A DNA stretch of 64,000 bases, from assembly GCA_023898745.1 (NCBI GenBank), contig CP060237.1:235718-299717 (forward strand). The letters are read 5' to 3'. Within the stretch, counting starts at the first letter, position 1, and each line of letters starts with the position of its first letter. Shown here piece after piece: positions 4,116 through 55,357 of this stretch. The position numbers and the translations under genes were made by a program. The DNA comes from Alphaproteobacteria bacterium. GTDB taxonomy: Bacteria; Pseudomonadota; Alphaproteobacteria; G02398745; G023898745. The notes below the pieces were generated by a model. The model had not been told where the DNA came from, did no database searches, and saw only the letters and a program-made list of their open reading frames with translations.

Positions 4116-4123
4116 GTCCTACG

Positions 4124-12476: not shown

Positions 12477-12510
12477 ATATACGCGACAAGTTCACTGAAA
12501 AACAAGTGAA

Positions 12511-16080: not shown

Positions 16081-16113
16081 TATTTTTTTTATTTTTAAAG
16101 TGTGTGGACTTTT

Positions 16114-16141
16114 TTTATAGGAAATGTTTTTTAAGTTTCAA
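16114..16141 (-). promoter_or_regulatory. Sigma70-like promoter and leader of kinase paralog 1 (TTGAAA-16-TATAAA on the minus strand)
   Basis: The reverse complement reads TTGAAACTTAAAAAACATTTCCTATAAA. The same promoter and roughly 60-nt leader are conserved upstream of all three kinase paralogs. Confidence 0.55.
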
Positions 16142-16149
16142 GGAAAACA

Positions 16150-16240
16150 TTGTCATCCTGAATGAAACAAAGGATCTTTTTGAGTTTATCTGAAGAAGGG
16201 CCTTTACTCGCTACGCTCATTCAAGAGGACAGCGCCTAAC
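16150..16240. repeat. GTCATCCTGAA...-type palindromic repeat (variant of the GTCATCCTGAGCG hairpin family)
   Basis: cattgtcatcctgaatga...cgctcattcaagaggacag forms an imperfect inverted repeat. It is related to the copies at 30955, 48158, 55026, 60702 and 62596. Confidence 0.5.
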
Positions 16241-16538
16241 TAAAGGAGTTGCCGCACCCACATGAAACAGTTGCGTTTGGATTCTTAATCACAAATCGCT
16301 CACCCATAAGATCTTGAATAAAATCTATGGTACTGCCATTAATCAAATCTAAAGAGGCTTGGTCGGTAATGACACTCGCATCATTCTTTATATATATAAT
16401 GTCTTCATCTCGTTTTTCATCCAACTCAAACGTATATTGAAAACCAGCACATCCGCCTCCAAGTACGCGAAGACGCAAAGCTTTTCCCTTGCTAAGTTTT
16501 TTAATTTGTGCAGCGGCACTTTCTGTGATGTGGAGCAT
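16236..16538 (-). CDS. erpA: Iron-sulfur cluster insertion protein ErpA/IscA (HesB family)
   Basis: C-terminal CGCGNSF and an internal conserved Cys (GGGCAGFQY); 100 aa. Confidence 0.88.
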   Translation of the reverse strand: MLHITESAAAQIKKLSKGKALRLRVLGGGCAGFQYTFELDEKRDEDIIYIKNDASVITDQASLDLINGSTIDFIQDLMGERFVIKNPNATVSCGCGNSFS

Positions 16539-16577
16539 AGACTTATATGTATGTCTTTTTTTTATAGTACCAGAAAA

Positions 16578-18260
16578 TTACAGAGTTTTTGCAAAATCAT
16601 CGAGTTGTTGAGCGGTTGGTCTATCCTGTGGATGAAACTGCAACATGCGCGCTGTAAACTCCGCAATTCTTCTTGAGGTTGAACCAACAGCCAAGTTCTG
16701 AATTTGTGTACTCATATTGAAAGTTCTTCTTGCTTCCGTTGCCAATCCCATCCAGTCAGATTGTTTCATATCAGTTTTAAACGGAAACCCCAAAAATTGC
16801 ATCGCATAGAACACAATTCCGAGTGAGTAAATATCAATTGCTGGACCATAAAGCTCTGCAGATAAAATTTCAGGCGGCAAATACGCTGGTGTTCCACATC
16901 GTCTTCTAAGATTGTGAAAACCTTCATTTTCGGCATTTGCAAATCCATAATCCGCTAAAAACACATCTTCACCCTTCATAAATATATTGTCTAGTTTTAT
17001 ATCCCTGTGAAGCACTTGGTTTGAATGCAAATAATTCAAAACAGATGCTAACTGTTTTATCCATCGCACCATTGTGGCCTCAGACAGCTGTTTTCGCTGC
17101 AACATATAATTATATAAATCAGAATCACATTTTGGCATAACAAGCAAACCTCTTAATCCATCAAAAATAAATTGACCTTTAAGGCTGTGAGAATGCTTCG
17201 CCATCTTTAAATGACTTATAATCTCTGGAATCCCCCCTGAAGTAACATAAAACAACTTCTCAATAGTATCCTTAGATGTATTTATATACAACGCTTCTTT
17301 TCCATCTCTTCCTTCTCTTAATACTTTATAATCACGGGATTTTAACAGACCATAAACAGAGGAATCAAGTTCAGAAAATAATCCTTCTATATCTTCTGTT
17401 GCATTTATATCAGTGCTAAATTTAGCACTAGGATTTACAAATGTTGATATAGAATAAGAAAAGTGAGAAAACAAATCGGCAGATGTAAATAAAAGCACAA
17501 CTTTACCATCAATAGAACACGAACATGCAAAAGCTGAATGATGATCTTGATGCTCAACTCTAAAAAATGACTGAGCCGTAATTTCTATTTTTTGCTGACA
17601 TGCCCCCTGCTTAAGCACAATAAAATCTTCTTCAAACTCTATTTTCACTGACTCTCCGTCTAATTGGCGCAAAGGCCCAGAGGTTTTCAGGAATATACCG
17701 CCTTTTCCTAAAAAACGCTTTTCACTGTTAAAACGATCATGAAGTGCTTTCTCCTCTTGATCACGCTGATTACTGATAGTTTTGTACCCTTGATGCAATC
17801 CAGCCCCTTCTCGTGGTTTAAGCATATCTAATAAATGACAAGCAGAAGTTATAAGATAACCTCTGTATAACGCCATATAGTTAAGCTCTTCCATATACTT
17901 AAGTTCTTGACGTGAGTGTTTCTCTAAAATTTCAACGCTCCCCAATACAAACTGATTGTAAAAAGTCCTTATATTCAACGTCTCTTCATCAACAATTTCT
18001 TGCATTCGATCTACATGATCCTTCTCAAGCTTCGAAATTTCAGTAGCATAATCAATCGCAGGAGCTCTAAGAGCTAATATACTTTCCGGATCAAAATGCA
18101 AATGTTGTTGGTTTTCGCCAACTAAGCTCAAGGCTTTAGATTCACACCTTTTATAATCAGGAGTATTTATTGCTTTCCCTCCCAACGCCGGCCTTCTTGG
18201 AGTTGTTGGAACGCTTGAAGCGTGAACAACTTCAGCTGCATACAAAAAATCAAAAAACAT
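16578..18260 (-). CDS. Eukaryotic-like Ser/Thr protein kinase, paralog 2 (560 aa). N-terminal MFFDFLYAAE leader, then an ~330-aa domain of unknown function, then the kinase domain.
   Basis: VLHRDIKLDNIF, ADYGFA, GTPAYLPPE, DIYSLGIVFY. The N-terminal domain is paralogous to that of kinase 3 (RFLGKGGIFLK... versus RFLGKTGVFER...). Confidence 0.85.
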   Translation of the reverse strand: MFFDFLYAAEVVHASSVPTTPRRPALGGKAINTPDYKRCESKALSLVGENQQHLHFDPESILALRAPAIDYATEISKLEKDHVDRMQEIVDEETLNIRTFYNQFVLGSVEILEKHSRQELKYMEELNYMALYRGYLITSACHLLDMLKPREGAGLHQGYKTISNQRDQEEKALHDRFNSEKRFLGKGGIFLKTSGPLRQLDGESVKIEFEEDFIVLKQGACQQKIEITAQSFFRVEHQDHHSAFACSCSIDGKVVLLFTSADLFSHFSYSISTFVNPSAKFSTDINATEDIEGLFSELDSSVYGLLKSRDYKVLREGRDGKEALYINTSKDTIEKLFYVTSGGIPEIISHLKMAKHSHSLKGQFIFDGLRGLLVMPKCDSDLYNYMLQRKQLSEATMVRWIKQLASVLNYLHSNQVLHRDIKLDNIFMKGEDVFLADYGFANAENEGFHNLRRRCGTPAYLPPEILSAELYGPAIDIYSLGIVFYAMQFLGFPFKTDMKQSDWMGLATEARRTFNMSTQIQNLAVGSTSRRIAEFTARMLQFHPQDRPTAQQLDDFAKTL

Positions 18261-18289
18261 TAGTTCATTTTTAGAGTGAGTAGGTTTCT

Positions 18290-18318
18290 TTTTTAGGAAA
18301 TGGTTTTTAAGGTTTCAA
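18290..18318 (-). promoter_or_regulatory. Sigma70-like promoter of kinase paralog 2 (TTGAAA-17-TAAAAA)
   Basis: The reverse complement reads TTGAAACCTTAAAAACCATTTCCTAAAAA; about 22 nt from the -10 to the ATG at 18260. Confidence 0.55.
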
Positions 18319-18400
18319 GAGTAAAAGGAAAAAAAATTTCCTTAAAATTAAGCGCGCTATTCTGTATACGAATTTTGAAGCGCCCCAAACAAATAGAATG

Positions 18401-38780: not shown

Positions 38781-39332
38781 TTACGCTTTTTTGTCTTTCT
38801 CCACTCTCTTAGGAGACTCAGGATACTCTGAATCAGTAAGACTCTCTAAATACCCTAACCAAGTACTTTTTTTATACTCGTAAAGCGGTCGGAGAATCTC
38901 TATAAGATCCCAGATTAATTGATTGTCTCGATTCAATTGCACATCATACAACATACATGCATAGAAAAATAAATGACTTTCAGTATAATTTTGAGGCAAT
39001 GGGTAAATTTTTTTAAGACAATTCAAAACGTTAATTGATACATCGAAAAATAATTTGGTGCTTATTTCTAAAGTAAATCTATTGGATTCAAGATAAGATA
39101 AACATTTTACAATATGGTGTAACGCAACATCATTTTTATTTCTTTCATCCATTCCATCCGCAGACAAAAATGAAAAAACATATTTAGATTCAAGTTTCGC
39201 TAATATAACTTTCATCCCCTCAGATATATTAGTCAATGCAAGTTTTCTAGGAGTAGATATAGAAGAATTTAATAAAAGCTGGGTTTCTGGAATCTTATCA
39301 TCAGAAGAAGTATTTACAAAATAAAAAAACAT
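38781..39332 (-). CDS. Hypothetical protein with an MFFYFVNTSS leader (183 aa)
   Basis: The ORF is preceded by an AGGAGG RBS. It is the last gene of a three-gene minus-strand cluster. Confidence 0.45.
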   Translation of the reverse strand: MFFYFVNTSSDDKIPETQLLLNSSISTPRKLALTNISEGMKVILAKLESKYVFSFLSADGMDERNKNDVALHHIVKCLSYLESNRFTLEISTKLFFDVSINVLNCLKKIYPLPQNYTESHLFFYACMLYDVQLNRDNQLIWDLIEILRPLYEYKKSTWLGYLESLTDSEYPESPKRVEKDKKA

Positions 39333-39351
39333 TTTTGTGCCTCCTAGGATA

Positions 39352-39651
39352 TTATAAAAGTTCTTTTAGAGACTTGATACGAATTCGCAGTTCATACACA
39401 TCAGAGCTTTCTTTATAAAAAACATTAAATCCCTCTAAAACCAACTTCATTGCAGGAATTGCAGTAAATAACAGTAAAGAAAATGGTCCAGTTTTAACAA
39501 AATCGACAAAATCTTCATGGATAGATTTGTTTGAACCTGCTTTTAAATATAAATAATCAAGTACACAATATACAAAAGATATGCTCAGCGCCATAGTTAA
39601 ATAATCTGCCCAAGTTTTACGCTCTGCATAACGCTTTTCATATTTCATCAA
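39352..39651 (-). CDS. Hypothetical small membrane protein (99 aa, two TM)
   Basis: The ORF sits between two MFF-leader ORFs on the same strand with 20- to 27-bp spacers; it has two hydrophobic helices. Confidence 0.4.
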   Translation of the reverse strand: MMKYEKRYAERKTWADYLTMALSISFVYCVLDYLYLKAGSNKSIHEDFVDFVKTGPFSLLLFTAIPAMKLVLEGFNVFYKESSDVYELRIRIKSLKELL

Positions 39652-39678
39652 TAAATCAGATACATCTTTGTCAGATCT

Positions 39679-39999
39679 TTAAGGAGTTAAAGATTGTTGG
39701 CTTATGTAAGTCAAAGCCACTAGAAGATCTTTTCCTATATTTTTATCATCGTATAAAAATACTTCACTAGCCTCTAGAGAAAGTGGGGCTTGAAAGTATA
39801 AGCTCCAGGCATCTTGATGGCGGGATTTATTCAGCGCATCAACCAATCTATTAATACTTTTCTGACATCCAGAACTAGTGCCATCTAAGTTTTGAGAAGT
39901 AAACACACCTTGATGAAAATTTATACGCCTTGATAAAGTTGCCATATGTTGGACTACTTTATCTTGTGGTGGCTGCTGCGTAGCAAAAAGCATAAACAT
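39679..39999 (-). CDS. Hypothetical protein with an MFMLFATQQ leader (106 aa)
   Basis: First ORF of the three-gene cluster; the leader motif is shared. Confidence 0.4.
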   Translation of the reverse strand: MFMLFATQQPPQDKVVQHMATLSRRINFHQGVFTSQNLDGTSSGCQKSINRLVDALNKSRHQDAWSLYFQAPLSLEASEVFLYDDKNIGKDLLVALTYISQQSLTP

Positions 40000-40140
40000 A
40001 AATTTAATTCTCTATTTTGTATTCTGATTACTTGATAGGATATATTCTTAAAAAAGTCAATATAAAAATAACAAAAGGGGTAAATTGCATTTTCACACGA
40101 AGATAATAAATAATATGGTGATTCCTCAGAAATAAGCACA

Positions 40141-43511: not shown

Positions 43512-46397
43512 TTAGTAGAAACCGTTAGGGCCGTAATTGCAGCAACCTGATCTATCATAACAGTTGCTTTGAGAACATCCTTGACCTAAGTTGCAACACT
43601 CTTCTTCAAAATACTCATCATCATAGCATGTGCTTTTGCATTTAAAGTTTTTCTTTGGTTCTTTTTCTTCAGTGAAGCCACATCCTTCACTGTATCCACA
43701 ACTTTTTGTTGGTTTACCGCAATAATCTGCTTCATGATGATCATCATGATAAATACCTTCATCACATTTAGGTTTTGAGCAACATGTCTTTGGGCAGTGC
43801 ACAAGATCGCCGCATTTTGTTACTTTGTAAAGCTTTGGACGCTCATCGTAGAATCCTACTGTATATCTAAACACAACTTCAGTTTTTGACTCTTTGAATT
43901 GCAAATCAAACAAACGATATCTACATCCTTTTGAGTTATAAGCATAAAGTGTATAGCACTCTTTTTTGTGATTTTTGAATGTGAGCATTACATCATTGCT
44001 CTCATCATTTCTCACGCCACAGCATGACATGTTTACAAATTGCAAACCTTCATCTGAAATGTATTGGCAGAAACATCTATCACCATAACGATCATATACA
44101 ACCAAACGATAGCAACATGTTTTATCATTTCTAAACAAGAACGCAAGCTCTTTATTGTGATCATTATCTAGATCACAGCACAAGAAATCTACAAAACGCT
44201 CACATCGATCTGCAATGATACGGCTGAAAATTGGAACAGTTGTTCCTGTATCTGTCAAAACGTACAAGCGTGTTTGTCCATTTGCCTCTTTCATTGTAAC
44301 GATTAATTCGTTAAATCCGTTGTTATCGATATCGCAGAATCCAACATTTTGCACACGTCCATCAGGCAACTCCACTGGGCAAATTCTTGTTGTGCCGTCT
44401 GCATTCAAAATAAACAACACATTTGACCCGCCGGAAATCTTGTAAGCAAACACAACACCATCATCCACATATTGGAAATATTGTTGCAAAATTGCATCTT
44501 GCGCAATTTTTATTTTTTGACCCACTGTTGCTTGGGTTGTTGTTAGATCTAAGAAACTGTAAGCACTAAAATGACACTCGTTTTTCAAAACAAGAATGAG
44601 TCTCTTAATATCTGTTGTTTGCTCACAACATACAAGCGCAAAGAACTTATCTCCTTTTAGACCAAGTGTCTTAGGATACGTATGTCCATAAACTTCAGTT
44701 ACACCTGTTCCATTTTCACTAATATTATAAAGCTCAAGTTTATGAAGTCCTTGAGGTGTTTTTAACACTACAACGAACTCTTTATCACCTGAAGCTCCTG
44801 TTGTAATAATTTCTCTCGTGAAATCACAACACTCAATATGCGCAAGAGAATCGCCTGGAGTTCCTAAATTCATCGTTTGAGACAACAATGCTGGAATTCC
44901 CATTCCTGCTGGCGTCACAACTAGAACATGTAGGCGCAATTGATTTAGTCTCGCATCTCTCAACACAACGAAAATTGCACGCTTTTCAAATGCGCCTGTA
45001 TCTGAATTTTTTGCAATATCGCAGCATTCAATTCTCTCAACGATATCACCACAATACCCAACAGACGCTGGACAAATCACGTTTGTTCCATCTGGATCAA
45101 CGATGAAAATAAAGTTTTGCATATCATCATTTTGGAACACAAAAATTACTTCAGATTGCAAATCCATATCTGCATTACACTCATGCGCAAACAAAGTAAG
45201 TCCATTTGTGAATGTTCCACCTACGAGACCGCCTGCGTTATTAAATCCAAATAGTTTAAATTTACCGCTTGCATCTTTTAGTGTTACGAACACTTGATCA
45301 ACCTCTTCGCAACATGTGACACTCACAAACGCTTCATTTCCAGCACCGAAAGTAACGCCAGAAGCTTGTGTTGTTGCGCCAGTTGTTTCAAAAATATGGA
45401 ACTTGAATTTTCCATCAGTTCCTCTCATGATCACAACTATTTCAGAATCTGCTGCAGTTGTTACATCACAACACAACAAACTAACAAATTTATCACCTGA
45501 GGCACCTAAAACTAAATGATTTCCAGCTCCCGTATTGAGGTCAACTAACCCAACTTGATTCAAAACTGCTGCTGCTGCGCTCTTATAAACTCTATTTTGT
45601 CCATTCACTTCAAATACAGCAAAAAACTGGTTATTACAGCAGAATGTTTTTATAAAGCTCGCTGAAAGTGGCAAATCTGTAGGGGCTTCAAATTGCTCTA
45701 AATCAATAGGTGTAGCTGAAGGAGCTGCAGGATTTATAGCAGCTGAAACATATTCTTGATCAGTTATATCTCTTGCAATAACCTGCAAGAAACCTATATC
45801 AGTTAGGCCTGGCGTTGCTGTTCCGCAACAATTTAAATCAACTAATTCTAATACGTTACCTGGAAAGCCCATTTTTTGTAGCGTCAAAGGCCCTGTGTCT
45901 GGAGTATTCATACTGCCTACATTCACTGGACTACCTGTGTGAGTATAGCGATAAATAAGAATTTGACCATTTTCCTTCATTGCAACATAAATCTCTTTAA
46001 ACCCATCTTCTCCTTGAGTGTCGTCCGGAGAAGCTGGAGTAGCTGGAGGTGTTACTGTATCTAAAATATCGCAACATGTAAGTGCTAAAAACTCATCGCA
46101 AGTTCCGCACATAGTTTGCGCACCAAACTTACCACAACGTGGCACAAATGTTTGACTCACTTGCCCCATATGATTAAACTCAATCGCCTCATATTGACCT
46201 GCAGGATCAACTAAAAGCAAAAGAACAGTTTGACTGTCACTGCAACAGTAAAACTTATTATTCGCCCCAATGCTGATATTCTTGTTTACCAACTTTCCTG
46301 TTTGTGAAACGGGTCCTTTGAGTGTGTAATTCTTAGTTGAATCATCTACTTCAAGTGTAAAACCTTCGTTTTGACAACTATAAATAAACTTTGCCAT
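43512..46397 (-). CDS. Giant (961 aa) repeat protein of about 13 FG-GAP/VCBS-like ~65-aa repeats, each with a vicinal Cys-Cys dipeptide, plus a Cys/His-rich C-terminal tail
   Basis: 15 CC dipeptides at quasi-regular spacing (FYCCSD, LTCCDIL, LLCCDVT, VTCCEEVD, IECCDIA, IECCDFT, LVCCEQTT, FLCCDLD...). FCDIDNNGFNELIV resembles the FG-GAP calcium-binding loop. The tail is CPKTCCSKPKCDEG...CCNLGQGCSQSNCYDRSGCCNYG. Confidence 0.7.
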   Translation of the reverse strand: MAKFIYSCQNEGFTLEVDDSTKNYTLKGPVSQTGKLVNKNISIGANNKFYCCSDSQTVLLLLVDPAGQYEAIEFNHMGQVSQTFVPRCGKFGAQTMCGTCDEFLALTCCDILDTVTPPATPASPDDTQGEDGFKEIYVAMKENGQILIYRYTHTGSPVNVGSMNTPDTGPLTLQKMGFPGNVLELVDLNCCGTATPGLTDIGFLQVIARDITDQEYVSAAINPAAPSATPIDLEQFEAPTDLPLSASFIKTFCCNNQFFAVFEVNGQNRVYKSAAAAVLNQVGLVDLNTGAGNHLVLGASGDKFVSLLCCDVTTAADSEIVVIMRGTDGKFKFHIFETTGATTQASGVTFGAGNEAFVSVTCCEEVDQVFVTLKDASGKFKLFGFNNAGGLVGGTFTNGLTLFAHECNADMDLQSEVIFVFQNDDMQNFIFIVDPDGTNVICPASVGYCGDIVERIECCDIAKNSDTGAFEKRAIFVVLRDARLNQLRLHVLVVTPAGMGIPALLSQTMNLGTPGDSLAHIECCDFTREIITTGASGDKEFVVVLKTPQGLHKLELYNISENGTGVTEVYGHTYPKTLGLKGDKFFALVCCEQTTDIKRLILVLKNECHFSAYSFLDLTTTQATVGQKIKIAQDAILQQYFQYVDDGVVFAYKISGGSNVLFILNADGTTRICPVELPDGRVQNVGFCDIDNNGFNELIVTMKEANGQTRLYVLTDTGTTVPIFSRIIADRCERFVDFLCCDLDNDHNKELAFLFRNDKTCCYRLVVYDRYGDRCFCQYISDEGLQFVNMSCCGVRNDESNDVMLTFKNHKKECYTLYAYNSKGCRYRLFDLQFKESKTEVVFRYTVGFYDERPKLYKVTKCGDLVHCPKTCCSKPKCDEGIYHDDHHEADYCGKPTKSCGYSEGCGFTEEKEPKKNFKCKSTCYDDEYFEEECCNLGQGCSQSNCYDRSGCCNYGPNGFY

Positions 46398-46947: not shown

Positions 46948-47610
46948 TCAATCCTTCGCAGCGTAATATACAAGCGGCGCAAAAGCTGCAATTGCCGCAA
47001 TCATCATACCAAAAATCCAAGTATAATCAGGGGGTTGCTGCACATAAATTGTTTGCACCTCAGGCTCTTTCATTTCAGGCAAAGTTGGGGGTTTAGGGCA
47101 CTCAAATCTCACAATATCAGGTACTTCAAGTGTTATTTTATGCCTCGGACTCAACTCAAGTGTTTTTTGATGGTCATAAATCAAATGTGCAAAATCTTTT
47201 TTCTTATCAACTCCAATGCCACCACTGTAACCATTGTAAAAGATATTCTTAAGATAAATCGGTGCGCCGCATTCATTTAATGCATTTGCACTAAAAACAT
47301 ACTGATTTAAAAATTGAGAAAAGTATGCGGCAACATCTTGAGCATACTGAGCAGAATGGCCAATTCTTTCACTAAAAAACAGACTAAAAGGCTTTTTATT
47401 ATCTGGATTCTCGATATTAAATGCTATCTGATTCTTAAGCATGCGACGCAAATCTGTGATTAAGCTTGCTGAGCTACTGTACAATAATTGTGTTGCGAAA
47501 GAATGTTCTGTACGCGGACCAAAGAAAATAGTTTTATCATCTCCAACCAATAAAAATAAACAAAATCCTCTGGGGTAATCCTCAAAAAAATTTCCGAATA
47601 AATTTGACAT
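46948..47610 (-). CDS. Hypothetical 220-aa protein with a C-terminal TM anchor
   Basis: Uninterrupted ORF ending in the hydrophobic IFGMMIAAIAAFAPLVYYAA; no motif recognised. Confidence 0.45.
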   Translation of the reverse strand: MSNLFGNFFEDYPRGFCLFLLVGDDKTIFFGPRTEHSFATQLLYSSSASLITDLRRMLKNQIAFNIENPDNKKPFSLFFSERIGHSAQYAQDVAAYFSQFLNQYVFSANALNECGAPIYLKNIFYNGYSGGIGVDKKKDFAHLIYDHQKTLELSPRHKITLEVPDIVRFECPKPPTLPEMKEPEVQTIYVQQPPDYTWIFGMMIAAIAAFAPLVYYAAKD

Positions 47611-47735
47611 TTCTCACCTCTTGACGGCGTGCGTCATGGCGAGACCTGGAAGTTCGTAGCCATCCATAATGGATCACCACGTCGCTACACTCCTCGTGAT
47701 GACGATGCGTTATGCAACAAATATCTATTATCTCA

Positions 47736-48197
47736 TTATATCATCAAAAGTGTAATATTAAAACGCTTTAATTCTTCTTTCAAAACACGCATCAAAATCT
47801 CATCGTCTTTTTTAATATCCGCTTTGGAAAGTTCTAATTTATGATGTTTAATTTTAAGATTCATGGGTGTATTCCTAAAAATAAATCCTAAAAGCACAAA
47901 AATTTTATTATATTCATCACCCTCCAGATTAATTTTGATATGCCTGGATAAATCTTGCGCCTCATGGGCTGGGATAGATGTACTGACAAAAATATGACGG
48001 AAACACTTAAACCGCCATGTCATATCATCAACAGCGTCTTTAATATCAGGGTGCGTTTCTGATAAAAAATTTAAAACCGTCAGGGGTGAGGCAAGGTCGT
48101 GTAAGATTTTTGAGATAACGGCAGTGTTAGAAGGTGCCACAGACTCGTCATCCTGAGCGAGCGTAGCGCGAGAGGAATCTTCCTGAGACATACTCAA
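47736..48197 (-). CDS. Possible ChpT-like histidine phosphotransferase / HisKA_2-type phosphoacceptor fragment. Its N-terminal 17 codons are supplied by a palindromic repeat.
   Basis: ILHDLASPLTVLNFL resembles the H-box of ChpT/HisKA_2 domains (RLCHDfiSPl). The start codon and the first ~17 codons (MSMSQEDSSRATLAQDD) lie inside the GTCATCCTGAGCG hairpin repeat at 48158..48252. Confidence 0.3.
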   Translation of the reverse strand: MSMSQEDSSRATLAQDDESVAPSNTAVISKILHDLASPLTVLNFLSETHPDIKDAVDDMTWRFKCFRHIFVSTSIPAHEAQDLSRHIKINLEGDEYNKIFVLLGFIFRNTPMNLKIKHHKLELSKADIKKDDEILMRVLKEELKRFNITLLMI

Positions 48198-48252
48198 GAA
48201 GCTCCTTCGCTACGCTCAGGATGACAGAGCGAGGACTCACGATGACGGAGCG
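48158..48252. repeat. GTCATCCTGAGCG...CGCTCAGGATGAC palindromic hairpin repeat overlapping the 5' end of the 47736..48197 ORF
   Basis: cgtcatcctgagcgagcgtagcgcgagaggaatcttcctgagacatactcaagaagctccttcgctacgctcaggatgac. Confidence 0.6.
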
Positions 48253-48254
48253 TT

Positions 48255-48668
48255 TTATGCATGACGTCTGGTTTGAAAACGCCTTAACTTCTCTTTTTTC
48301 TCTTGCGCTTCCAAACTCAGTGTTGCAATTGGTCTTGCAATGAGACGATTGATATCAATTGGCTCACCCGTCTCTTCACAGTACCCATAAGATCCATCTT
48401 CAATTTTGCTTAACGCTTGATCGATTTTCTCAATCAACAAGCTATCACGTTGCTTAGATGCTAGGGCTAAACTTTGTTCCGTTTCTTTCGCTGCAATATC
48501 CGCAATATCCGACTCTAGGGACGCTTCCACAATCTTCTCAGCCTTTTGACGCTCTTGCAATAAAGACTGTTTCCAGCTCACAAGTCTCTTCTTGAAATAA
48601 CTCTTTTGCTCTTCATTCATAAAATCATCCTCATTTTCTGGGGTGTAATCTTTTTGATTATTGTTCAT
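48255..48668 (-). CDS. dksA: DksA/TraR-family RNA polymerase-binding regulator lacking the C4 zinc finger
   Basis: A coiled-coil N-terminal half with acidic tip residues, and a C-terminal GSYGYCEETGEPIDINRLIARPIATLSLEAQE that aligns to the DksA zinc-finger region but has only one Cys. Confidence 0.65.
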   Translation of the reverse strand: MNNNQKDYTPENEDDFMNEEQKSYFKKRLVSWKQSLLQERQKAEKIVEASLESDIADIAAKETEQSLALASKQRDSLLIEKIDQALSKIEDGSYGYCEETGEPIDINRLIARPIATLSLEAQEKKEKLRRFQTRRHA

Positions 48669-48844
48669 TACCTTGCAAAATAATTTCCCAACTTCATAAA
48701 ATTATTAGAACACAAACAAGATCAAATTCTCAATAAAATTTATACAAAATTTTAATAAAAAAACATATATAACTATTGAAATTAACTTTTTATTTATTTT
48801 TCTCATTCCATTCTATTGGAAAGAAAATAAAATATGTTATTGGC

Positions 48845-49285
48845 ATGCGAGAAAATCATTTAGAAGCAATTTCCCTTGTTGAAGTTGTGTATAAACTCTA
48901 CTTAGATGTGCTAAAAACTGAGCTAAGCAAATTAGGAATTTTGGACATCAACAACATGCAAGCCATGATTATGTATCATATTGGTGATCGTAAGTTATCT
49001 ATAGGCGAAGTCATAGACAAAGGCTGCTTTATTGGCTCAAATGTCTCATATAATGTAAAAAAACTCACATCTGCAGGATATTTAAAACAAGAGCCATCTC
49101 AATTTGATCGACGCTCTGTATATTTGACACTTACAAAACAAGGAAAAGAAGTGTATACGAAGCTTCATAAGGCAATTCAGGAGCAAAAGAAGGTGTTGTT
49201 GAAATATGGTTTGTCTGATCAAGATTTCGAAAATTTGAAAGAGACCTTGACGAAGCTTGAATATGTTCTTATAAGAATGGTGTAA
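48845..49285 (+). CDS. MarR-family winged-helix transcriptional regulator
   Basis: wHTH with the wing motif DRRSVYLTLTKQGKEV. The start is at MRENHLE; it lies divergent from the dksA-like gene. Confidence 0.6.
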   Translation: MRENHLEAISLVEVVYKLYLDVLKTELSKLGILDINNMQAMIMYHIGDRKLSIGEVIDKGCFIGSNVSYNVKKLTSAGYLKQEPSQFDRRSVYLTLTKQGKEVYTKLHKAIQEQKKVLLKYGLSDQDFENLKETLTKLEYVLIRMV

Positions 49286-49316
49286 GAATATATTTTATTG
49301 ATAATTTAGGAGAAGC

Positions 49317-49709
49317 ATGTTTTTTTTATTCAGTTCTGCTGAGCAAACACAAGCCGTTGCAGCTGTAGTGTTTTCATATTCAATCCAGGAGGGATCTACA
49401 GTTGATATACCTCAGGCGTTTCCAAATGGCACAAAAACTTTAGAACTGCGCTCAACGACCGGTCAATGGAATAAGTTAATAATAGATCAATTGGAAAATA
49501 TTTTAAGTCAGCCAGGCTTGGAGAGCTTAGAAAAAATACGCCTCATTAATGTTAGAAGTCTAACCGAAAATCAGATAAAGGAGCTCTCTGAAAAATTATG
49601 GCAACACTCTAAAACAGTGCAAGAAATCGTATGGGGGGATTATTCTTGGAAACGTGACAAACCGCTTTTGATGTCTGCTCAGGAAAAATCCCTACCTATT
49701 TCCGGTTAA
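49317..49709 (+). CDS. Hypothetical 130-aa protein with an MFFLFSSAEQ leader
   Basis: The ORF is preceded by an AGGAG RBS; the leader is nearly identical to that of the DacC-like PBP (MFFLFSKA). Confidence 0.45.
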   Translation: MFFLFSSAEQTQAVAAVVFSYSIQEGSTVDIPQAFPNGTKTLELRSTTGQWNKLIIDQLENILSQPGLESLEKIRLINVRSLTENQIKELSEKLWQHSKTVQEIVWGDYSWKRDKPLLMSAQEKSLPISG

Positions 49710-51028
49710 AAAAGAGGATACGAGTTCGTATGGCTCATGATCATCTGAGAAACAAAACTCTCTGAATCGTCTATTTCAGACACGTAATTTACCAAAAAAT
49801 TATGAATAACAGGATGTAATCTTTCTTTACCTTCAGGGCTAAATGCTAGCATGCCGATAGAGTCTGCAAATTTTTTTACATCTTCTATAAAAAGATACTC
49901 TTCAAACATTTTATCTTTCAATGGTTGGGGTACTGCTGCTAAACTCTGCTCCACAAAATCTTTGCGCCTCATAAGAGCTCTGTATGGTCTAAGAAATCTA
50001 ATACTCTCATTATGCCTACATAAACGATAAAAATAATCCGTAAATGCTTGGCTATTTCGATATTGATCAAGCTCAAAACCCATGTCTAACTCCTGCACAA
50101 TTCCAGAAAATTCCTGTCGAAACTCTGCGTCTTCTCCAAGTTTTTTATATAGCACCGCAATAAATTCTGGCCGAAAGATAAATACATCAAAAAGAAGGTC
50201 TTGCTTGCAGACTTCATCGTATGAAAAATTCATCGACTGCACATCGATTAAACTAAACACGCCTGTCTCTTTGTCATAAAACACATTATTCGCGTTTAAA
50301 TCATTATGCGCCCCATGCATAAATTTATGAAATTTTCTCAATCTTCGTCCGAAATCTGCTAAGACATTTGAAGCATCTGCATCATTCCTACGATCTCGCA
50401 GAAAGGCTATTATAGAAACTCCTGGCGCACATGGCATAATGACCCACGATCGATTAATATCTCTCCGGGAAACAACTTGTACAGGCATAATTACCCTTAA
50501 GGCATTCTGCGCTACAAGAAACGGGTTCATTTCATTTAAATGCTTTAAATTATAAAGCTCTGACTCTGGAGATGATCTCGCAAGCAATATACTTTCGATT
50601 GTTACAGAATACGCCTGCCTGGCTTGCTGAGCAGCTACCGCATTTTCTTGCAAAACTTTTATAATATAATCATTCACTCTTCGACTTGGATCCATCACAT
50701 GAACACCTTTGACTTTCCATAAAGCTTCTGTAAAAGAACCTTGCGCCTCCATTACCTGTGCATTTGGAACTGGATTAGGCAAAAAATATGGCTGAATTAA
50801 AATTTCGGGTCCAATTGCTGGATCTTGATCTCCATCACTGTCAACCATCGGAGCTCCATACTCACCCTCGCCTGCTATTGCCATAACTATTTCATCTGAC
50901 TGCACATCCTCTCCAGAATCATCAGATTCTTTGCGAAAAAAATACCCACCTACAAATGTTATTGTGGGAAAAATCAACGCACTCCCTAAAAAAACCGCCC
51001 CATGAATAACGCCATAATTTTTGCTCAT
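49706..51028 (-). CDS. Membrane-anchored protein-kinase-like (PKL) fold protein (aminoglycoside/choline/Kdo-kinase-like)
   Basis: N-terminal TM helix (GVIHGAVFLGSALIFPTITFVGGYFF) and an acidic linker. A Brenner-type catalytic loop HGAHNDLNANNVFYD and the metal-binding LIDVQS, analogous to HGDLHPGN...IDFE of APH/Kdo kinases. Confidence 0.5.
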   Translation of the reverse strand: MSKNYGVIHGAVFLGSALIFPTITFVGGYFFRKESDDSGEDVQSDEIVMAIAGEGEYGAPMVDSDGDQDPAIGPEILIQPYFLPNPVPNAQVMEAQGSFTEALWKVKGVHVMDPSRRVNDYIIKVLQENAVAAQQARQAYSVTIESILLARSSPESELYNLKHLNEMNPFLVAQNALRVIMPVQVVSRRDINRSWVIMPCAPGVSIIAFLRDRRNDADASNVLADFGRRLRKFHKFMHGAHNDLNANNVFYDKETGVFSLIDVQSMNFSYDEVCKQDLLFDVFIFRPEFIAVLYKKLGEDAEFRQEFSGIVQELDMGFELDQYRNSQAFTDYFYRLCRHNESIRFLRPYRALMRRKDFVEQSLAAVPQPLKDKMFEEYLFIEDVKKFADSIGMLAFSPEGKERLHPVIHNFLVNYVSEIDDSESFVSQMIMSHTNSYPLF

Positions 51029-51145
51029 ATTTTATAAATTTAGGTACGTTTATAGCTTGAGTATATCACACATATCAAACTTCTGCACTATAGAACACAA
51101 AATGCAAAAATGTTATAATGAAGAAATTAAAAAACAAATACCCTC

Positions 51146-52459
51146 ATGTCTAAAAATAATTTTGCTGGAAAACTTGTGTTGGCTATATGTGTCTCTTGGG
51201 CGCTGCCTTTACTGCTTTGGATAGGTTCCTATAGCACAACATCACAGGTTTCTTCCAATGTTTCGTATGCATCTTTGTATGCTGCGCCAGATGATGAAAA
51301 CATGCAACTTAAACTTTTTTATAAGGGAAGAGAATTAGGTATTGTAACGCGTCAAACCATAATAAATGCACAAATGGAAGAACTGGCGAAAATAACCGAT
51401 CCCACAACTTGGTTAGATGATCATCCAGACCCTGATGGAACATATACTGTCAGAATACCAACGCAAAACTCAAACGGCATAACTTTGTCAATTGAGGCAG
51501 ATCGTCTCATATTTAATGACCTCATGAATTATATAAATGGAAATAATGTTGAATTTAAAAGAGAAGATCAAACATTTTGGAAAAATATAGCAATTTTCTT
51601 GGGTGCAAAAAACTTAATAAAAAATATAGAAATGCATGAATTATTTCCAAACTTAAGTACGGAAAAAATTAACCACTTAAAAGCTTCTGCAATCGGGCAA
51701 AAACTCACAGAATTACGTGAAATGTCACCAGAGGCACGTGCGTGGCTTGAAGAACTGCTAAATAACAATACACTTGACTTTTCTATGAACTATCCTTATC
51801 CATCTCAGTCTGCAGATGATTTGCTTCGCTCTCTGAGCCCTTTCATCACAAACAAGGATGACAATGAAATAAAACGCTTAAGAACAAGAGTCACACCTTT
51901 AATTGCTAAACTCATGAGCAAATCTCATGACCGCAGACTATCTTATGCACTTACTCTGTTTGCTTATTTAGAAGAATCTTATTGGGATAAAATTGTTGCT
52001 GATGCAGAGAAATTATACGCAATAGACCCGTCAGAAGATCTTGTGATACTCGCTTCTTATCTTAATAACACGCCCTATAAAAACGACCCAGATAAATTTA
52101 TAAATTTCGTTATTGAAGTAAAAAAAATTATATCGGATGGTATGGACGCACTCATAACAGCACTGTCTCAAGGTGTTGAAATGATGGGTCGCATGACTTC
52201 TAACCCAGAAAAAGCAATCATAAACGACCTGAAACTTTTAACCGAATCCCGACCAAACGCAAAAGTAGGAAGCTTGTGGCGTAGTTATCTTGCACTCATC
52301 AACGATAGCCAACAAGTGGGTCCCGAAAATTTAAAAGACCAGTGGCTTGAAATAATTTATCAAAAGCTAAAAGATGACCCCAATTTGCCTCTTGACGAGG
52401 CATGGATCGGAGTGCGCCTTAACCGAACAGGAAACGGTTATGTGTTGGAGCAACTCTAA
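51146..52459 (+). CDS. Hypothetical 437-aa protein with a classical N-terminal signal/anchor sequence
   Basis: LVLAICVSWALPLLLWIGS hydrophobic N-terminus; no motif recognised. Confidence 0.5.
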   Translation: MSKNNFAGKLVLAICVSWALPLLLWIGSYSTTSQVSSNVSYASLYAAPDDENMQLKLFYKGRELGIVTRQTIINAQMEELAKITDPTTWLDDHPDPDGTYTVRIPTQNSNGITLSIEADRLIFNDLMNYINGNNVEFKREDQTFWKNIAIFLGAKNLIKNIEMHELFPNLSTEKINHLKASAIGQKLTELREMSPEARAWLEELLNNNTLDFSMNYPYPSQSADDLLRSLSPFITNKDDNEIKRLRTRVTPLIAKLMSKSHDRRLSYALTLFAYLEESYWDKIVADAEKLYAIDPSEDLVILASYLNNTPYKNDPDKFINFVIEVKKIISDGMDALITALSQGVEMMGRMTSNPEKAIINDLKLLTESRPNAKVGSLWRSYLALINDSQQVGPENLKDQWLEIIYQKLKDDPNLPLDEAWIGVRLNRTGNGYVLEQL

Positions 52460-52708
52460 AATTATTAAAAGCTATGGCAAGTAACACATATCTAATATCT
52501 AACTTTGGTAACGCAGACCTAAATTACCAAGATAGGTTTATGCACAAGACTAACCACCTTTCTTCTGATTTAACACGCTGGATGAAATAGCTGCGCAGTT
52601 GGATAGATAGCAGATTGTCCATATTCGATAACTAAAAAAGCCCTTCACACTTCTATCTTTAAGAAGAAATGGAATGATCTGATATAGTAAAAAAGATTCA
52701 CTCATATT

Positions 52709-53155
52709 TTGTGTCACATGAAATCCTTCATCCCCTCTCCTGCAGCAAAACCCAAACCAACGCCAACAAAAATATCTTTTAAGGGTGAGCTAAACCTCAC
52801 CACAGATCCACACTTAGAACTTACATTTGAAATGCGACCAGAATTTGATGCGAAAGGGCGTTTATTATCACTATCTTTCATTCATGAAAATCTCACTCAC
52901 AAACATACATTTGCGATTGAAGACCCGCTTACAGAAAACAGTCCGTGTGGTGGAGTTTATAGCGATACTTTACCACTATCACACATTGCACAGGCGTATT
53001 TTAAAAATGATGACCGTGTCATTGATATCACACAAAATCTTTTGTCGGGCATAGAAAGTGGCGCGATACAATATGGTGATCTTGTATCTTACAGAGGTTA
53101 CAAAAAAGATGCTGCAAGTAAGTTTGTACAAATTTGTTTCAAAGGGAGAGTATAA
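52709..53155 (+). CDS. Hypothetical 148-aa protein, translationally coupled to the downstream ORF
   Basis: The stop TAA overlaps the next ATG (TAATG at 53153..53157). Confidence 0.4.
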   Translation: MCHMKSFIPSPAAKPKPTPTKISFKGELNLTTDPHLELTFEMRPEFDAKGRLLSLSFIHENLTHKHTFAIEDPLTENSPCGGVYSDTLPLSHIAQAYFKNDDRVIDITQNLLSGIESGAIQYGDLVSYRGYKKDAASKFVQICFKGRV

Positions 53156-53577
53156 TGGACTGGATAACGTTAGCCTTAGAAACAGCAAAATTTTTCACCA
53201 AACATTTTCCTGGATTGCTACAAACCAAAGATCCGTTAGAACTATCTCGCATCCTAAAAGAGCATCCTGATAAAGCGCTTGAACTTTATAAACACTTGAT
53301 GACGCTTGAGCAAGAAATGCATAAGATGGTTTTAATTGATAGGCAAAAAGCGCGCCTCACCAATAAATCTTTCTACAGACGATTTCTCTTTTTTAGTTTT
53401 GTTTGTTTAGGGTTAGGAGGGTGTTTTTGGTTAATGCAAAAACCAAATCTTTCCAGTGAAATATTGGTTATTATATCTACTTTGGCTGGTATTTTGGGAT
53501 CGTGCTTAAAAGATATTTATGCATTTGAGTTTGGGGGAGATGCGCCTAAGAGGTCAATTAAACCGCCAGGGTTTTGA
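53155..53577 (+). CDS. Hypothetical 140-aa membrane protein (two TM)
   Basis: The start is at MDWITLALE, preceded by AAGGGAGAG; hydrophobic helices FLFFSFVCLGLGGCFWL and ILVIISTLAGILGSCL. Confidence 0.4.
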   Translation: MDWITLALETAKFFTKHFPGLLQTKDPLELSRILKEHPDKALELYKHLMTLEQEMHKMVLIDRQKARLTNKSFYRRFLFFSFVCLGLGGCFWLMQKPNLSSEILVIISTLAGILGSCLKDIYAFEFGGDAPKRSIKPPGF

Positions 53578-53584
53578 AATGCAC

Positions 53585-53702
53585 CGCGGGACATCATGGC
53601 CATCCACAAGGGATCACCACGATCTGCTTCGCAGATCTCGTGATGACGACAGATATAACACTCCTCGTGATGACGAAAAATATAGCGCTCCTCGTAATGA
53701 CA
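53585..53702. repeat. Modular hairpin repeat plus three CTCGTGATGACG-type iterations
   Basis: ggatcaccacgatctgcttcgcagatctcgtgatgacgacagatataacactcctcgtgatgacgaaaaatatagcgctcctcgtaatgac. Confidence 0.75.
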
Positions 53703-53942
53703 CCCCTGCCGCCATAAACTTTTCTTAACCTTTTTCATGCTGTCCTAAAGAAAACAGGTGTTATTTTATATGAAACACAGCCTCAAGCTCAGAATGAAAC
53801 CTATGCCCCAACCTATCAATAACGAGCTAATTCCTTATAAAAGGCGCGATAAATTACTGGTGAAGTATTATATTGGATTATATGTTGTTTTAAGGGTATG
53901 TGTGGAGTTATTGAGTCGGCCGAGTATTGTTTCTTAGCGCTT

Positions 53943-54152
53943 ACATCATCACGAGGAGTGTTATATCTGTCGTCATCACGAGGAGCGCAGCGACGCGGTG
54001 ATCTATGGAGGTGCCCGCCTTCGCTCTTTGAGCTTCGGCGAGGCATCCATTTCACACGCTCCGACTCAACCAATCTCGTCGTAGCTAAATTTTGCTGAAA
54101 GCAAAATTTGCGAAGACGGATGGATAGCCACGCTACGCTCACCATGACGACG
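53943..54152. repeat. Composite repeat region with an inverted element A copy
   Basis: Reverse-complement match to element A, including the gcaaattttgc-tgaaa-gcaaaatttgc hairpin. Confidence 0.8.
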
Positions 54153-55025: not shown

Positions 55026-55357
55026 CGTCATCCTGAGCCGAAGGCGAAGGATCTTCTCAAGTCTGTCTCAGGAAGATCCTTCATTCGCTTCGCTCATTCA
55101 GGATGACGGTGCACGGAAAGCACGTCATGGCGAGCGAAGGTGGGCTATCTCAATGGATCACCATGTCGCTGCGCTCCTCGTGATGACGACTCTGAGCCCG
55201 TCATGGCGAGATTTTCGAAAGAAAATCGTGGCCATCCATGTTTTTCTGGATCACCACGCCTTGCTACGCAAGGCTCGTGATGACGTCTGCGCATATTTTT
55301 CGTGGGGATGAATCAGCTCAGGATGATGAAATTCATGCGCTCCTCGTGATGACGGCG
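55026..55357. repeat. Composite repeat region (GTCATCCTGAGCC hairpin, GTCATGGCGAGCG hairpins, hairpin modules)
   Basis: Direct repeats of modules seen elsewhere; it generates the spurious MFFWITTPCYARLVMT ORF. Confidence 0.8.

What the first reader, a model, noticed from the sequence alone, without database searches (positions are those of the whole stretch)
48255..53577. Repeat-free 5.3-kb block encoding regulators and secreted or membrane unknowns
Hairpin modules occur every few hundred bp elsewhere, but this stretch has none between 48252 and 53585. It encodes the following genes.
- A DksA-like protein without the Cys4 zinc finger.
- A divergently transcribed MarR-type regulator.
- An MFFLFSS-leader small protein.
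- A TM-anchored atypical-kinase-fold protein.
- A signal-peptide protein of 437 aa.
- A translationally coupled pair (a 148-aa soluble protein plus a 140-aa 2-TM protein, joined by a TAATG overlap).

The different repeat density and the mix of regulators with exported unknowns suggest a distinct unit. It could be a recently acquired island, or an operon set under selection against repeat insertion.
Basis: inference. Interest (0 to 1): 0.5.

Follow-up and report, generated by a model that had tools for sequence, protein, structure and literature searches.

The report
Ordinary repeat-free stretch of seven genes
The 5.3-kb stretch really lacks the genome's short hairpin repeats, but it is not a separate island: it joins the end of an inherited regulator gene cluster to five tightly packed lineage-specific genes, and its composition matches the rest of the genome.

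Summary
The gap is real. No copy of any repeat core lies between 48226/48252 and 53585/53596, and it is the longest such gap in the window. It is not clearly beyond chance. Repeat clusters lie a median of 1.0 kb apart, not "every few hundred bp". Uniform placement gives a gap this long in 61% of trials, and a window-wide shuffle of gene junctions gives P=0.07. GC, GC3, codon usage and tetranucleotides match the rest of the window. There is no tRNA, integrase or Rfam hit.

In the closest relative found (60-72% protein identity), the order g220–g153–dksA|marR is conserved. The block's left border therefore cuts through an inherited cluster into which repeats have inserted.

- dksA is the normal one-cysteine alphaproteobacterial type.
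- marR is LdtR-like.
- The remaining five genes (49317-53577) have no homologue beside marR in that relative. The two searched against 5.8 billion proteins found only themselves.
- The 440-aa protein belongs to a sparse, divergent protein-kinase-like family.

The "island" reading does not. Selection against insertion is plausible only for the dksA–marR promoter spacer. Low interest.

The parts
46948..47610 (-). g220, a conserved hypothetical protein with a C-terminal TM segment. It lies outside the finding but belongs to the same syntenic cluster.
   Evidence: 60% identical to the gene at the same relative position in L082/L083. No Pfam or NCBIfam hit. Hydrophobic segment at residues 196-218.
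47632..47706 (.). Repeat module inserted between g220 and g153, inside the conserved cluster.
   Evidence: The corresponding spacer in L082 is 35 bp, and none of the four relative contigs L082-L085 contains the repeat core.
47736..48197 (-). g153, a conserved hypothetical protein. Its HDLASPL motif recalls a histidine phosphotransfer/DHp site, but that is read from the sequence only and was not tested.
   Evidence: 59% identical to the L082 gene directly downstream of dksA. No family hit.
48145..48252 (.). Left-border repeat module, overlapping the 5' end of g153.
48255..48668 (-). dksA, an RNA polymerase-binding factor of the one-cysteine (C-T-S-A) alphaproteobacterial type, with a DIADIA (DxxDxA) tip.
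   Evidence: Pfam DksA_N 48.7 bits and zf-dskA_traR 45.2 bits, both above cut-off. TIGR02420 scores 113.2 against a cut-off of 115.5. C-T-S-A is found in 81 of 81 homologues. 72% identical to the L082 gene.
48669..48844 (.). Divergent dksA/marR promoter spacer, 81% A+T, collinearly conserved with the relative. Candidate operator and promoter blocks lie at about 48700-48718, 48727-48739 and 48781-48806.
   Evidence: 67% identity over 153 aligned columns. The alignment score is z=6.8 above dinucleotide shuffles, and 0 of 1000 shuffles reach it.
48845..49285 (+). marR-family regulator, closest to the LdtR subfamily. The ATG at 48845 gives 146 aa. The annotated TTG start at 48776 gives 169 aa.
   Evidence: Pfam HTH_27 45 bits and MarR_2 32.3 bits. 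NCBIfam LdtR scores 123 bits against a cut-off of 250. Homologues align only from residue 24.
49317..49709 (+). g130, a small soluble protein with no family hit. It probably forms a two-gene operon with marR: the spacer is 31 bp and an AGGAG lies upstream of the ATG.
   Evidence: No family hit. No hydrophobic segment. Its GC1>GC2>GC3 pattern resembles that of housekeeping genes.
49706..51028 (-). g440. It has an N-terminal TM helix (residues 6-30), an acidic linker, a divergent protein-kinase-like domain (about 96-335, with IIK, HNDLNANN and LID motifs) and a helical C-terminal domain.
   Evidence: Only a self hit in the word-indexed search. Eight remote homologues by HMMER. The family profile matches 257 PDB protein-kinase sequences, best E=3e-5. 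The top Foldseek hits are all kinases. TM segment.
51146..52459 (+). g437, an ORFan with an N-terminal hydrophobic segment (residues 5-30), either a signal peptide or a signal anchor. It is divergent from g440 across a 117-bp spacer.
   Evidence: Only a self hit among 5.8 billion proteins. No family hit. Hydropathy.
52718..53155 (+). g145/148, a soluble protein with no family hit. The ATG at 52718 gives 145 aa and the TTG at 52709 gives 148 aa. A 258-bp spacer precedes it.
53155..53577 (+). g140, a protein with two TM segments. Its ATG overlaps the upstream TAA (TAATG), with GGGAGAG 7 nt upstream, so translational coupling is plausible.
   Evidence: Sequence. Two hydrophobic segments. Weak match to phrog_1544, a family of unknown function (E=3e-6), and to a Vibrio phage TM protein.
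53585..53701 (.). Right-border repeat modules, the first of a cluster that runs to 54152.

Best explanation
The block is not one unit. It is a tightly packed run of seven genes in a repeat-rich alphaproteobacterial genome, and it has two parts of different history.

1. Left part. dksA and the divergent marR are the right end of a vertically inherited cluster, g220–g153–dksA|marR. That cluster extends beyond the block's left border, and two repeat modules have inserted into it in this lineage.

2. Right part. Five lineage-specific genes (49317-53577) encode membrane or possibly exported proteins in native codon usage. One of them is a membrane-anchored, divergent protein-kinase-like enzyme.

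The lack of repeats is best explained by little permissive space plus chance. Only 582 of 5323 bp are non-coding. Three of the six internal junctions are 31 bp or less, or overlap. Two of the other three are divergent promoter spacers, and the dksA/marR spacer is demonstrably under sequence constraint.

Functional reading, inferred from family knowledge:
- DksA binds the RNA polymerase secondary channel together with ppGpp.
- The MarR regulator autoregulates from the shared spacer and probably controls the marR–g130 operon.
- g440 phosphorylates an unknown substrate at the membrane.
- g145/148 and g140 are made in coupled fashion.
For: Gap statistics:
- Uniform null P=0.61.
- Window-wide junction-run test P=0.07.

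Composition:
- Block GC is 0.377 and GC3 0.326, against 0.380 and 0.323 for the rest (Mann-Whitney p=0.96 and 0.94).
- 22% of equally long windows have a tetranucleotide distance as large or larger.
- All five unknowns show the same GC1>GC2~GC3 pattern as housekeeping genes.

Mobility signatures:
- No tRNA or Rfam element lies in the block.
- No integrase, phage or defence family hit.

Synteny:
- L082/L083 carry g220 (60% identity), g153 (59%), dksA (72%) and marR (72%) in the same order and orientation. Their spacers are 35 and 13 bp, and the contigs lack the repeat core.
- The dksA–marR spacer is conserved (z=6.8).

Gene identities:
- DksA type: and PMC4010833.
- Kinase-like fold of g440.
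- TAATG overlap.

Independent assembly: contig L001 (5982 bp) reproduces the block and ends in the flanking repeats.
Against: - Taken on its own, the block is nominally depleted. About 3.6 occupied junctions are expected and none is seen (P=0.027). Outside the block, 19 of 24 roomy spacers are occupied, against 0 of 3 inside (P=0.009). Some real cause beyond chance is therefore possible.
- Genes without a Pfam hit are somewhat enriched: 5 of 7 in the block against 14 of 43 outside (Fisher p=0.089).
- The five right-hand genes have no homologue next to marR in the relative.
- Only 64 kb of the genome and one informative relative were available.
- The functions of g130, g437, g145/148 and g140 are unknown.
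Confidence: 0.7

Rival explanations
1. The right-hand 4.3 kb (g130 to g140, 49317-53577) is a young, lineage-specific gene gain. It arrived, or arose, after the main burst of repeat spread and has not yet been colonised. It might be a host-interaction module of membrane or exported proteins.
For: - g440 and g437 have no close homologue among 5.8 billion proteins.
- None of the five genes has a match next to marR in L082-L085.
- Its three spacers are empty although 19 of 24 roomy spacers elsewhere are occupied.
- Some repeat copies are 94-98% identical, which suggests recent spread.
- A remote g440 homologue sits on a plasmid-like contig with F-type T4SS, Fic and Rep3 genes.
- The window also carries three eukaryote-like Ser/Thr kinases.
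Against: - Composition and codon usage are native.
- There are no mobility genes, tRNA or flanking direct repeats.
- Genes without a Pfam hit are common all over the window, 14 of 43 outside the block.
- Synteny with the only relative also breaks to the left of g220, so absence there is weak evidence.
- g130 looks operonic with the inherited marR.
Confidence: 0.17
2. The whole 5.3-kb block is kept free of repeats by purifying selection, because it is one regulatory unit: MarR and DksA controlling the neighbouring membrane or exported proteins.
For: - The dksA–marR spacer is conserved with the relative.
- Two of the three roomy spacers are divergent promoter regions.
- The block is nominally depleted of repeats.
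Against: - Outside the block, 10 of 12 divergent spacers carry repeats, so promoter regions tolerate them in general.
- dksA and marR are adjacent only in the closest relative. They are not adjacent in the two other MarR-relative contigs, at 58% identity, nor in 80 other alphaproteobacteria.
- The genes to the right of marR differ in every relative, which argues against a conserved regulon.
- There are no expression or binding data.
Confidence: 0.1
3. The whole block 48255-53577 is a recently acquired genomic island bounded by the repeat modules.
For: Repeat modules lie at both ends. The block mixes regulators with genes of unknown function.
Against: - The left border cuts the syntenic g220–g153–dksA|marR cluster.
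- DksA is the standard alphaproteobacterial type, and the best MarR matches are alphaproteobacterial (Skermanella, Azospirillum).
- Composition is identical to the rest of the window.
- The bordering repeats are ordinary members of a family that occupies 33 of 54 junctions.
- There is no integrase or tRNA.
Confidence: 0.03

Closest known systems
Intergenic palindromic repeat families (REP/BIME of enterobacteria, Rickettsia palindromic elements, Correia/MITE-like elements). This comparison rests on general knowledge.
   Same: The background against which the block stands out is a family of short GC-rich hairpin modules. They occupy 61% of gene junctions, sometimes in tandem or composite arrays, and sometimes overlap gene ends.
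   Different: The block is defined by the absence of these modules. Rfam has no match for them. No transposase or RAYT was looked for. The same 34-nt module occurs in metagenome contigs with GC from 0.33 to 0.66, an unusually broad range.
Rhodobacter sphaeroides DksA (RSP2654), a one-cysteine, zinc-independent DksA (PMC4010833)
   Same: It has the coiled-coil DxxDxA tip. Only the first of the four zinc-finger cysteines is kept, with Thr and Ala at the second and fourth positions.
   Different: The third position is Ser here and Thr in RSP2654. The tip reads DIADIA rather than the common DLADRA.
LdtR, a MarR-family regulator of 'Candidatus Liberibacter asiaticus' and Rhizobiales (NCBIfam NF047395)
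   Same: LdtR is the best-scoring named subfamily (E=1e-35, 123 bits). The winged-helix MarR domain is complete.
   Different: The score is far below the equivalog cut-off of 250. No L,D-transpeptidase gene lies next to it. Its neighbours here are dksA and a gene of unknown function.
Atypical protein-kinase-like families (Kdo/WaaP, APH, ABC1/UbiB) and eukaryote-like Ser/Thr kinases of intracellular bacteria
   Same: g440 keeps the beta3 Lys (IIK), the HxDxxxxN catalytic loop (HNDLNANN) and the metal-binding Asp (LID). The family profile aligns to the hinge, catalytic loop and DFG region of solved kinases.
   Different: No Pfam kinase model reaches its cut-off. There are only 8 remote relatives among 1.84 billion cluster representatives. 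It has an N-terminal TM anchor and a roughly 100-aa helical C-terminal extension. The substrate is unknown.
Genomic islands
   Same: The block is a cluster of lineage-specific genes with a sporadic distribution, lying beside conserved genes.
   Different: There is no compositional deviation, no tRNA or integrase, and no bounding direct repeats specific to the segment.

Membership tests
Genomic island (recent horizontal acquisition) | Base composition or codon usage deviates from the host genome | tested here: not met
   GC, GC3 and codon-bias distance do not differ from the other 48 genes (p=0.96, 0.94 and 0.16). The tetranucleotide distance is within the range of 22% of equal-sized windows.
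Genomic island (recent horizontal acquisition) | Mobility hallmarks: integrase or transposase, tRNA target, flanking direct repeats | tested here: not met
   No such Pfam, NCBIfam or PHROG hit. The nearest tRNA is at 32808. The only flanking repeats are ordinary members of the genome-wide family.
Genomic island (recent horizontal acquisition) | Present or absent as a block in related genomes | tested here: inconclusive
   dksA–marR are syntenic with the left flank in L082/L083, so the block as drawn is not one insertion. The five right-hand genes are absent there. Only one relative, at 60-72% identity and with 1.9 kb beyond marR, was available.
DksA (RNA polymerase-binding factor) | DksA_N coiled coil plus the DksA/TraR C-terminal domain, above curated cut-offs | tested here: met
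   PF21157 scores 48.7 bits (cut-off 27) and PF01258 scores 45.2 bits (cut-off 24.9). TIGR02420 scores 113.2, just under its cut-off of 115.5.
DksA (RNA polymerase-binding factor) | DxxDxA motif at the coiled-coil tip | tested here: met
   DIADIA aligns with DLADRA and DIADRA of 80 alphaproteobacterial homologues. The motif is defined in PMC4010833.
DksA (RNA polymerase-binding factor) | Cys4 zinc finger (canonical E. coli type) | tested here: not met
   The pattern is C-T-S-A. The same pattern is found in 81 of 81 homologues, so this is the alphaproteobacterial one-cysteine type, which is functional in R. sphaeroides.
MarR family transcription regulator | Winged-helix MarR domain above the curated cut-off | tested here: met
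   PF13463 scores 45 bits (cut-off 22.2) and PF12802 scores 32.3 bits (cut-off 27).
LdtR equivalog (NF047395) | Score at or above the NCBIfam cut-off | tested here: not met
   123 bits against a cut-off of 250. No transpeptidase family hit in any block or adjacent flank gene scanned.
Protein-kinase-like superfamily (for g440) | Match to a curated kinase-family model above its cut-off | tested here: not met
   APH scores 17.7 (cut-off 23.2) and Kdo scores 14.0 (cut-off 21.3).
Protein-kinase-like superfamily (for g440) | Catalytic residues: beta3 Lys, HxDxxxxN loop and DFG-type Asp | tested here: met
   IIK, HNDLNANN and LID fall in conserved columns of alignment A2. The profile aligns these to HRDLKPEN and IDFG of MELK and others (E=3e-5, 257 PDB sequences).
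Protein-kinase-like superfamily (for g440) | Bilobal kinase fold | tested here: inconclusive
   The AF2 model built on 9 sequences has pLDDT 50.8 and pTM 0.51. The top 50 Foldseek PDB hits are all protein kinases (E down to 6e-6), but TM-scores are only 0.2-0.4.
Protein-kinase-like superfamily (for g440) | Phosphotransfer activity | not testable with these tools
   This needs a biochemical assay.
Translationally coupled gene pair (g145/148–g140) | Overlapping stop and start codons, with a ribosome-binding site inside the upstream gene | tested here: met
   The TAATG lies at 53153-57, with GGGAGAG 7 nt upstream. Actual coupling was not tested.

The most novel reading that the evidence does not exclude
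The right-hand 4.3 kb (49317-53577) is a young, lineage-specific module that post-dates the spread of the hairpin repeats. On this reading it encodes a host-interaction set, and the presence or absence of repeats could serve as a relative clock for gene gain in this genome. The set would comprise:
- a membrane-anchored kinase from a very sparse family, also seen on a T4SS plasmid-like contig;
- exported or membrane partner proteins;
- the adjacent marR, to which the module is wired through the marR–g130 operon.
Probability: 0.12. Interest if true: 0.45.

Novelty: new member of a known kind. Interest (0 to 1): 0.15.

Why it matters
It matters little as it stands. The result shows that in this repeat-saturated genome the presence or absence of hairpin modules does not mark functional or evolutionary units. 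Repeats have inserted inside a conserved four-gene cluster, while a neighbouring run of lineage-specific genes happens to lack them.

Two by-products may be worth more than the block itself:
- a very sparse family of divergent, membrane-anchored protein-kinase-like proteins, with 9 cluster representatives (the query plus 8 relatives) among 1.84 billion;
- the finding that one exact 34-nt repeat module is shared by metagenome contigs of very different GC content.

Tried and rejected
- Single-sequence AlphaFold of g440 gave pLDDT 34 and was unusable.
- A single-sequence phmmer search of g440 against PDB sequences found nothing significant.
- PADLOC and PHROGs scans of the block proteins gave no defence or phage assignment, apart from a weak match of g140 to a family of unknown function.
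- Rfam at permissive E-values found only two chance snoRNA-like matches.
- The promoter and terminator scans gave counts no higher than in shuffles.
- The genome-contig scan with DksA returned only distant alphaproteobacteria (47-55% identity) and not the source genome. None has a MarR homologue, or any other block gene, within 10 kb.
- No paralogues of the block proteins exist elsewhere in the window.
- I first claimed conservation of the dksA–marR spacer from shared exact words. That did not hold: the longest shared word is 11 nt (P=0.18). The claim now rests on the global-alignment test.
- A literature search for the repeat core strings found nothing relevant.
Their description as ORFans rests only on family libraries and the fetched loci.

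Full report
**Source and setting**

The window comes from an uncultured alphaproteobacterium. NCBI names two of its proteins [quoted passage not shown], on a 953,497-bp contig. GC is about 38%.

The window mixes three kinds of gene:
- Housekeeping genes: bamB, der, rpsI, rplM, hisS, tig, dnaB, ruvC, ruvB, ftsW/rodA, tpiA and tamB.
- Many genes with no family hit.
- Three tandem eukaryote-like Ser/Thr kinases.

The window is littered with short GC-rich palindromic modules, with cores such as CTCGTGATGACG, GGATCACCACG and CGTCATGGCGAG. The first core occurs 45 times with up to one mismatch, against 0.09 expected by chance.

**Check of the observation**

The gap is real.
- Self-BLAST of the window gives 41 repeat clusters covering 4970 bp. 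The longest repeat-free interval is 48226-53596, 5371 bp.
- Seven repeat cores searched with up to 2 mismatches give nothing inside 48255-53577, apart from one 2-mismatch hit at 53293.

- The median gap between clusters is 1037 bp. Only 11 of 40 gaps are under 500 bp, and 10 exceed 2 kb.
- With a stricter repeat definition, 12481-20219 (7.7 kb) is a longer gap.

Whether the gap exceeds chance depends on the null model.
- With 41 clusters placed uniformly, a gap of at least 5371 bp appears in 61% of simulations, and the mean longest gap is 6.0 kb.
- Repeats lodge at gene junctions, and 33 of 54 junctions are occupied. The block is a run of six empty junctions. Shuffling occupancy yields such a run somewhere in the window with P=0.07.
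- Pointwise, the block's 582 bp of spacer would be expected to carry 3.6 occupied junctions (Poisson P(0)=0.027). Its three roomy spacers (176, 117 and 258 bp) being empty has P=0.009, given that 19 of 24 roomy spacers are occupied elsewhere.
- The region was picked because it is the extreme of the window, so the window-wide figure is the fair one. The depletion is suggestive but not established.

**Composition**

Nothing in the composition sets the block apart.
- Block genes have GC 0.377 and GC3 0.326, against 0.380 and 0.323 for the other 48 genes. Mann-Whitney p is 0.96 and 0.94. The codon-bias distance does not differ either (p=0.16).
- 22% of equally long windows have a tetranucleotide distance to the whole window as large or larger.
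- All seven genes show the GC1>GC2~GC3 pattern of the Pfam-supported housekeeping genes, so the unknowns look like real, native-style coding sequences.
- No tRNA lies nearer than 32808, and there is no credible Rfam match.
- No integrase, transposase, phage or defence family was hit.

**Synteny**

The MarR protein has only three close relatives among 5.8 billion proteins, at 72%, 58% and 58% identity.

The 72% relative lies on contigs L082 and L083.
- They carry homologues of g220 (60%), g153 (59%), dksA (72%) and marR (72%), in the same order and orientation as window 46948-49285.
- The spacers there are 35 and 13 bp. The window has repeat modules at the same two places, 47632-47706 and 48145-48252.
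- None of the four relative contigs contains the repeat core.
- The left border of the "block" therefore cuts through an inherited four-gene cluster that repeats have invaded in this lineage.

To the right of marR, the relative has unrelated genes. One is a paralogue of window gene 4124-5068. Nothing there resembles g130, g440, g437, g145/148 or g140. Synteny also ends to the left of g220, so the conserved core is only these four genes, and the break at marR says little about the block specifically.

In the two 58% relatives, marR has yet other neighbours. In 80 other alphaproteobacteria, no marR homologue lies within 10 kb of dksA.

The dksA–marR spacer (48669-48844, 81% A+T) is collinearly conserved with L082. 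Identity is 67% over 153 aligned columns. The alignment score is z=6.8 above dinucleotide shuffles, and 0 of 1000 shuffles reach it. This is direct evidence of constraint on that one spacer.

An independent Logan assembly contig, L001 (5982 bp), reproduces the block exactly and ends in the flanking repeats. The block is therefore not an assembly artefact. It also shows why relatives are hard to find on long contigs.

**The genes**

dksA (48255-48668, minus strand)
- Both Pfam domains score above their cut-offs.
- The DxxDxA tip motif reads DIADIA.
- The four zinc-finger positions read C-T-S-A, the same as in all 81 homologues examined.
- This is the known one-cysteine type, which is functional in Rhodobacter sphaeroides (PMC4010833).

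marR (48845-49285, plus strand; the annotated TTG start is at 48776)
- It is a MarR-family regulator closest to LdtR, but far below that equivalog's cut-off: 123 bits against 250.

g130 (49317-49709, plus strand)
- It follows marR after 31 bp, with an AGGAG upstream of its ATG, so it is probably co-transcribed with marR.
- It has no hydrophobic segment. The "MFFLFSS leader" is therefore not a signal sequence.

g440 (49706-51028, minus strand)
- It has an N-terminal TM helix at residues 6-30.
- The word-indexed search found only the protein itself.
- Full HMMER against 1.84 billion cluster representatives found eight remote relatives, with E from 1e-13 to 1e-3.
- They share the motif FH…HGDxxxxNVFYD…F(T/S)LID and hit APH, Kdo, ABC1 or Pkinase models weakly.
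- A profile of the family matches 257 solved protein-kinase sequences (best E=3e-5). It aligns HNDLNANN and LID with the catalytic loop and the DFG Asp.
- An AF2 model built from the 9-sequence alignment has modest confidence (pLDDT 50.8, pTM 0.51). Its core around residues 200-260 scores 60-83.
- Foldseek returns only protein kinases at the top (E down to 6e-6), but TM-scores are low.
- The "atypical kinase fold" reading is supported at the sequence-motif level. Structural support is weaker.

Two of the g440 relatives have informative contexts.
- P0125 lies in L108, a contig from a distant relative (trigger factor 40% identical). That contig carries the same repeat module about 200 bp upstream of the gene. 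The gene's neighbour there is an M23 peptidase, not marR.
- P0127 lies on a plasmid-like contig with F-type T4SS genes, a Fic protein and Rep3.

g437 (51146-52459, plus strand)
- It matched only itself among 5.8 billion proteins.
- It has an N-terminal hydrophobic segment at residues 5-30. A signal peptide and a signal anchor cannot be told apart here.

g145/148 and g140
- They overlap in TAATG, with GGGAGAG 7 nt upstream.
- g140 has two TM segments.
- It matches phrog_1544, a family of unknown function, only weakly (E=3e-6).

**Interpretation**

The block is a composite of two parts: the end of an inherited regulator cluster, and five lineage-specific genes for membrane or possibly exported proteins.

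Its lack of repeats is adequately explained by three things:
- tight packing, with only 11% of the block non-coding and three junctions of 31 bp or less;
- constraint on at least one promoter spacer;
- chance.

Genes without a Pfam hit are somewhat enriched in the block, 5 of 7 against 14 of 43 outside, but not significantly (Fisher p=0.089). Such genes occur throughout the window.

A residual possibility, about 0.1-0.2, is that the right-hand 4.3 kb is younger than the repeat expansion. The whole-block island reading is contradicted.

**Verdict**

Interest is low.

Noticed in passing
window-wide, e.g. 47670-47704, 12442-12476, 55154-55188; loci L087-L117: The exact 34-nt module GGATCACCACGNNGCTNNGCTCCTCGTGATGACG occurs in 31 JGI/ENA metagenome contigs whose GC ranges from 0.33 to 0.66. 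It often lies next to another hairpin module (cgtcattgcgagc…ggcaatcc). The range is surprisingly broad for a short intergenic repeat. There is no Rfam family for it, and no paper was found by searching the sequence strings.
   Followed up: partly
window 14827-20104 (- strand): Three tandem paralogous eukaryote-like Ser/Thr protein kinases (Pkinase E from 1e-29 to 1e-37, 26-31% identical to each other) lie in the other long repeat-poor stretch. Two tandem homologues occur on L104, from the same metagenome as L108.
   Followed up: partly
window 38781-40140: There is a second run of four repeat-free junctions around small genes with no Pfam hit. Two of these genes have clearly low GC (0.30-0.31) and GC3 (0.21-0.25). 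By composition this is a better island candidate than the reported block.
   Followed up: no
window 43512-46397 (- strand): A 961-aa protein has a periodic Cys-Cys motif (…CCD/CCE… roughly every 60 residues), one FG-GAP-like repeat hit and a Cys-rich C-terminal tail. No close family was found.
   Followed up: no
window 7356-8540 (- strand): A lone large terminase subunit gene (Terminase_6N/6C) is flanked by dense repeat arrays. It may be a gene-transfer-agent or prophage remnant.
   Followed up: no
window 47736-48197 (- strand): g153, directly downstream of dksA and conserved with it in the relative, carries an HDLASPL motif that recalls histidine-phosphotransfer/DHp sites. It has no Pfam or NCBIfam hit, and a repeat module overlaps its 5' end.
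   Followed up: no
L119 6997-7839 (ENA ERZ21831150 contig_9): A remote homologue of the g440 kinase-like protein sits on a 31.8-kb plasmid-like contig, together with F-type T4SS genes (TraN, TrbC), a Fic protein, HepT, Rep3 and transposases.
   Followed up: partly
window 53816-54145, 7139-7408, 3906-4148: ORFs of 80-109 aa are made largely of repeat modules (peptides such as HHVAALLVMT and PRDDD). They are almost certainly spurious and would inflate gene counts.
   Followed up: partly
L001 (Logan SRR12358676 contig, 5982 bp): An independent short-read assembly yields a contig that is essentially the repeat-free block and stops in the flanking repeats. The repeats fragment short-read assemblies of this organism, which biases which relatives can be recovered.
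   Followed up: yes
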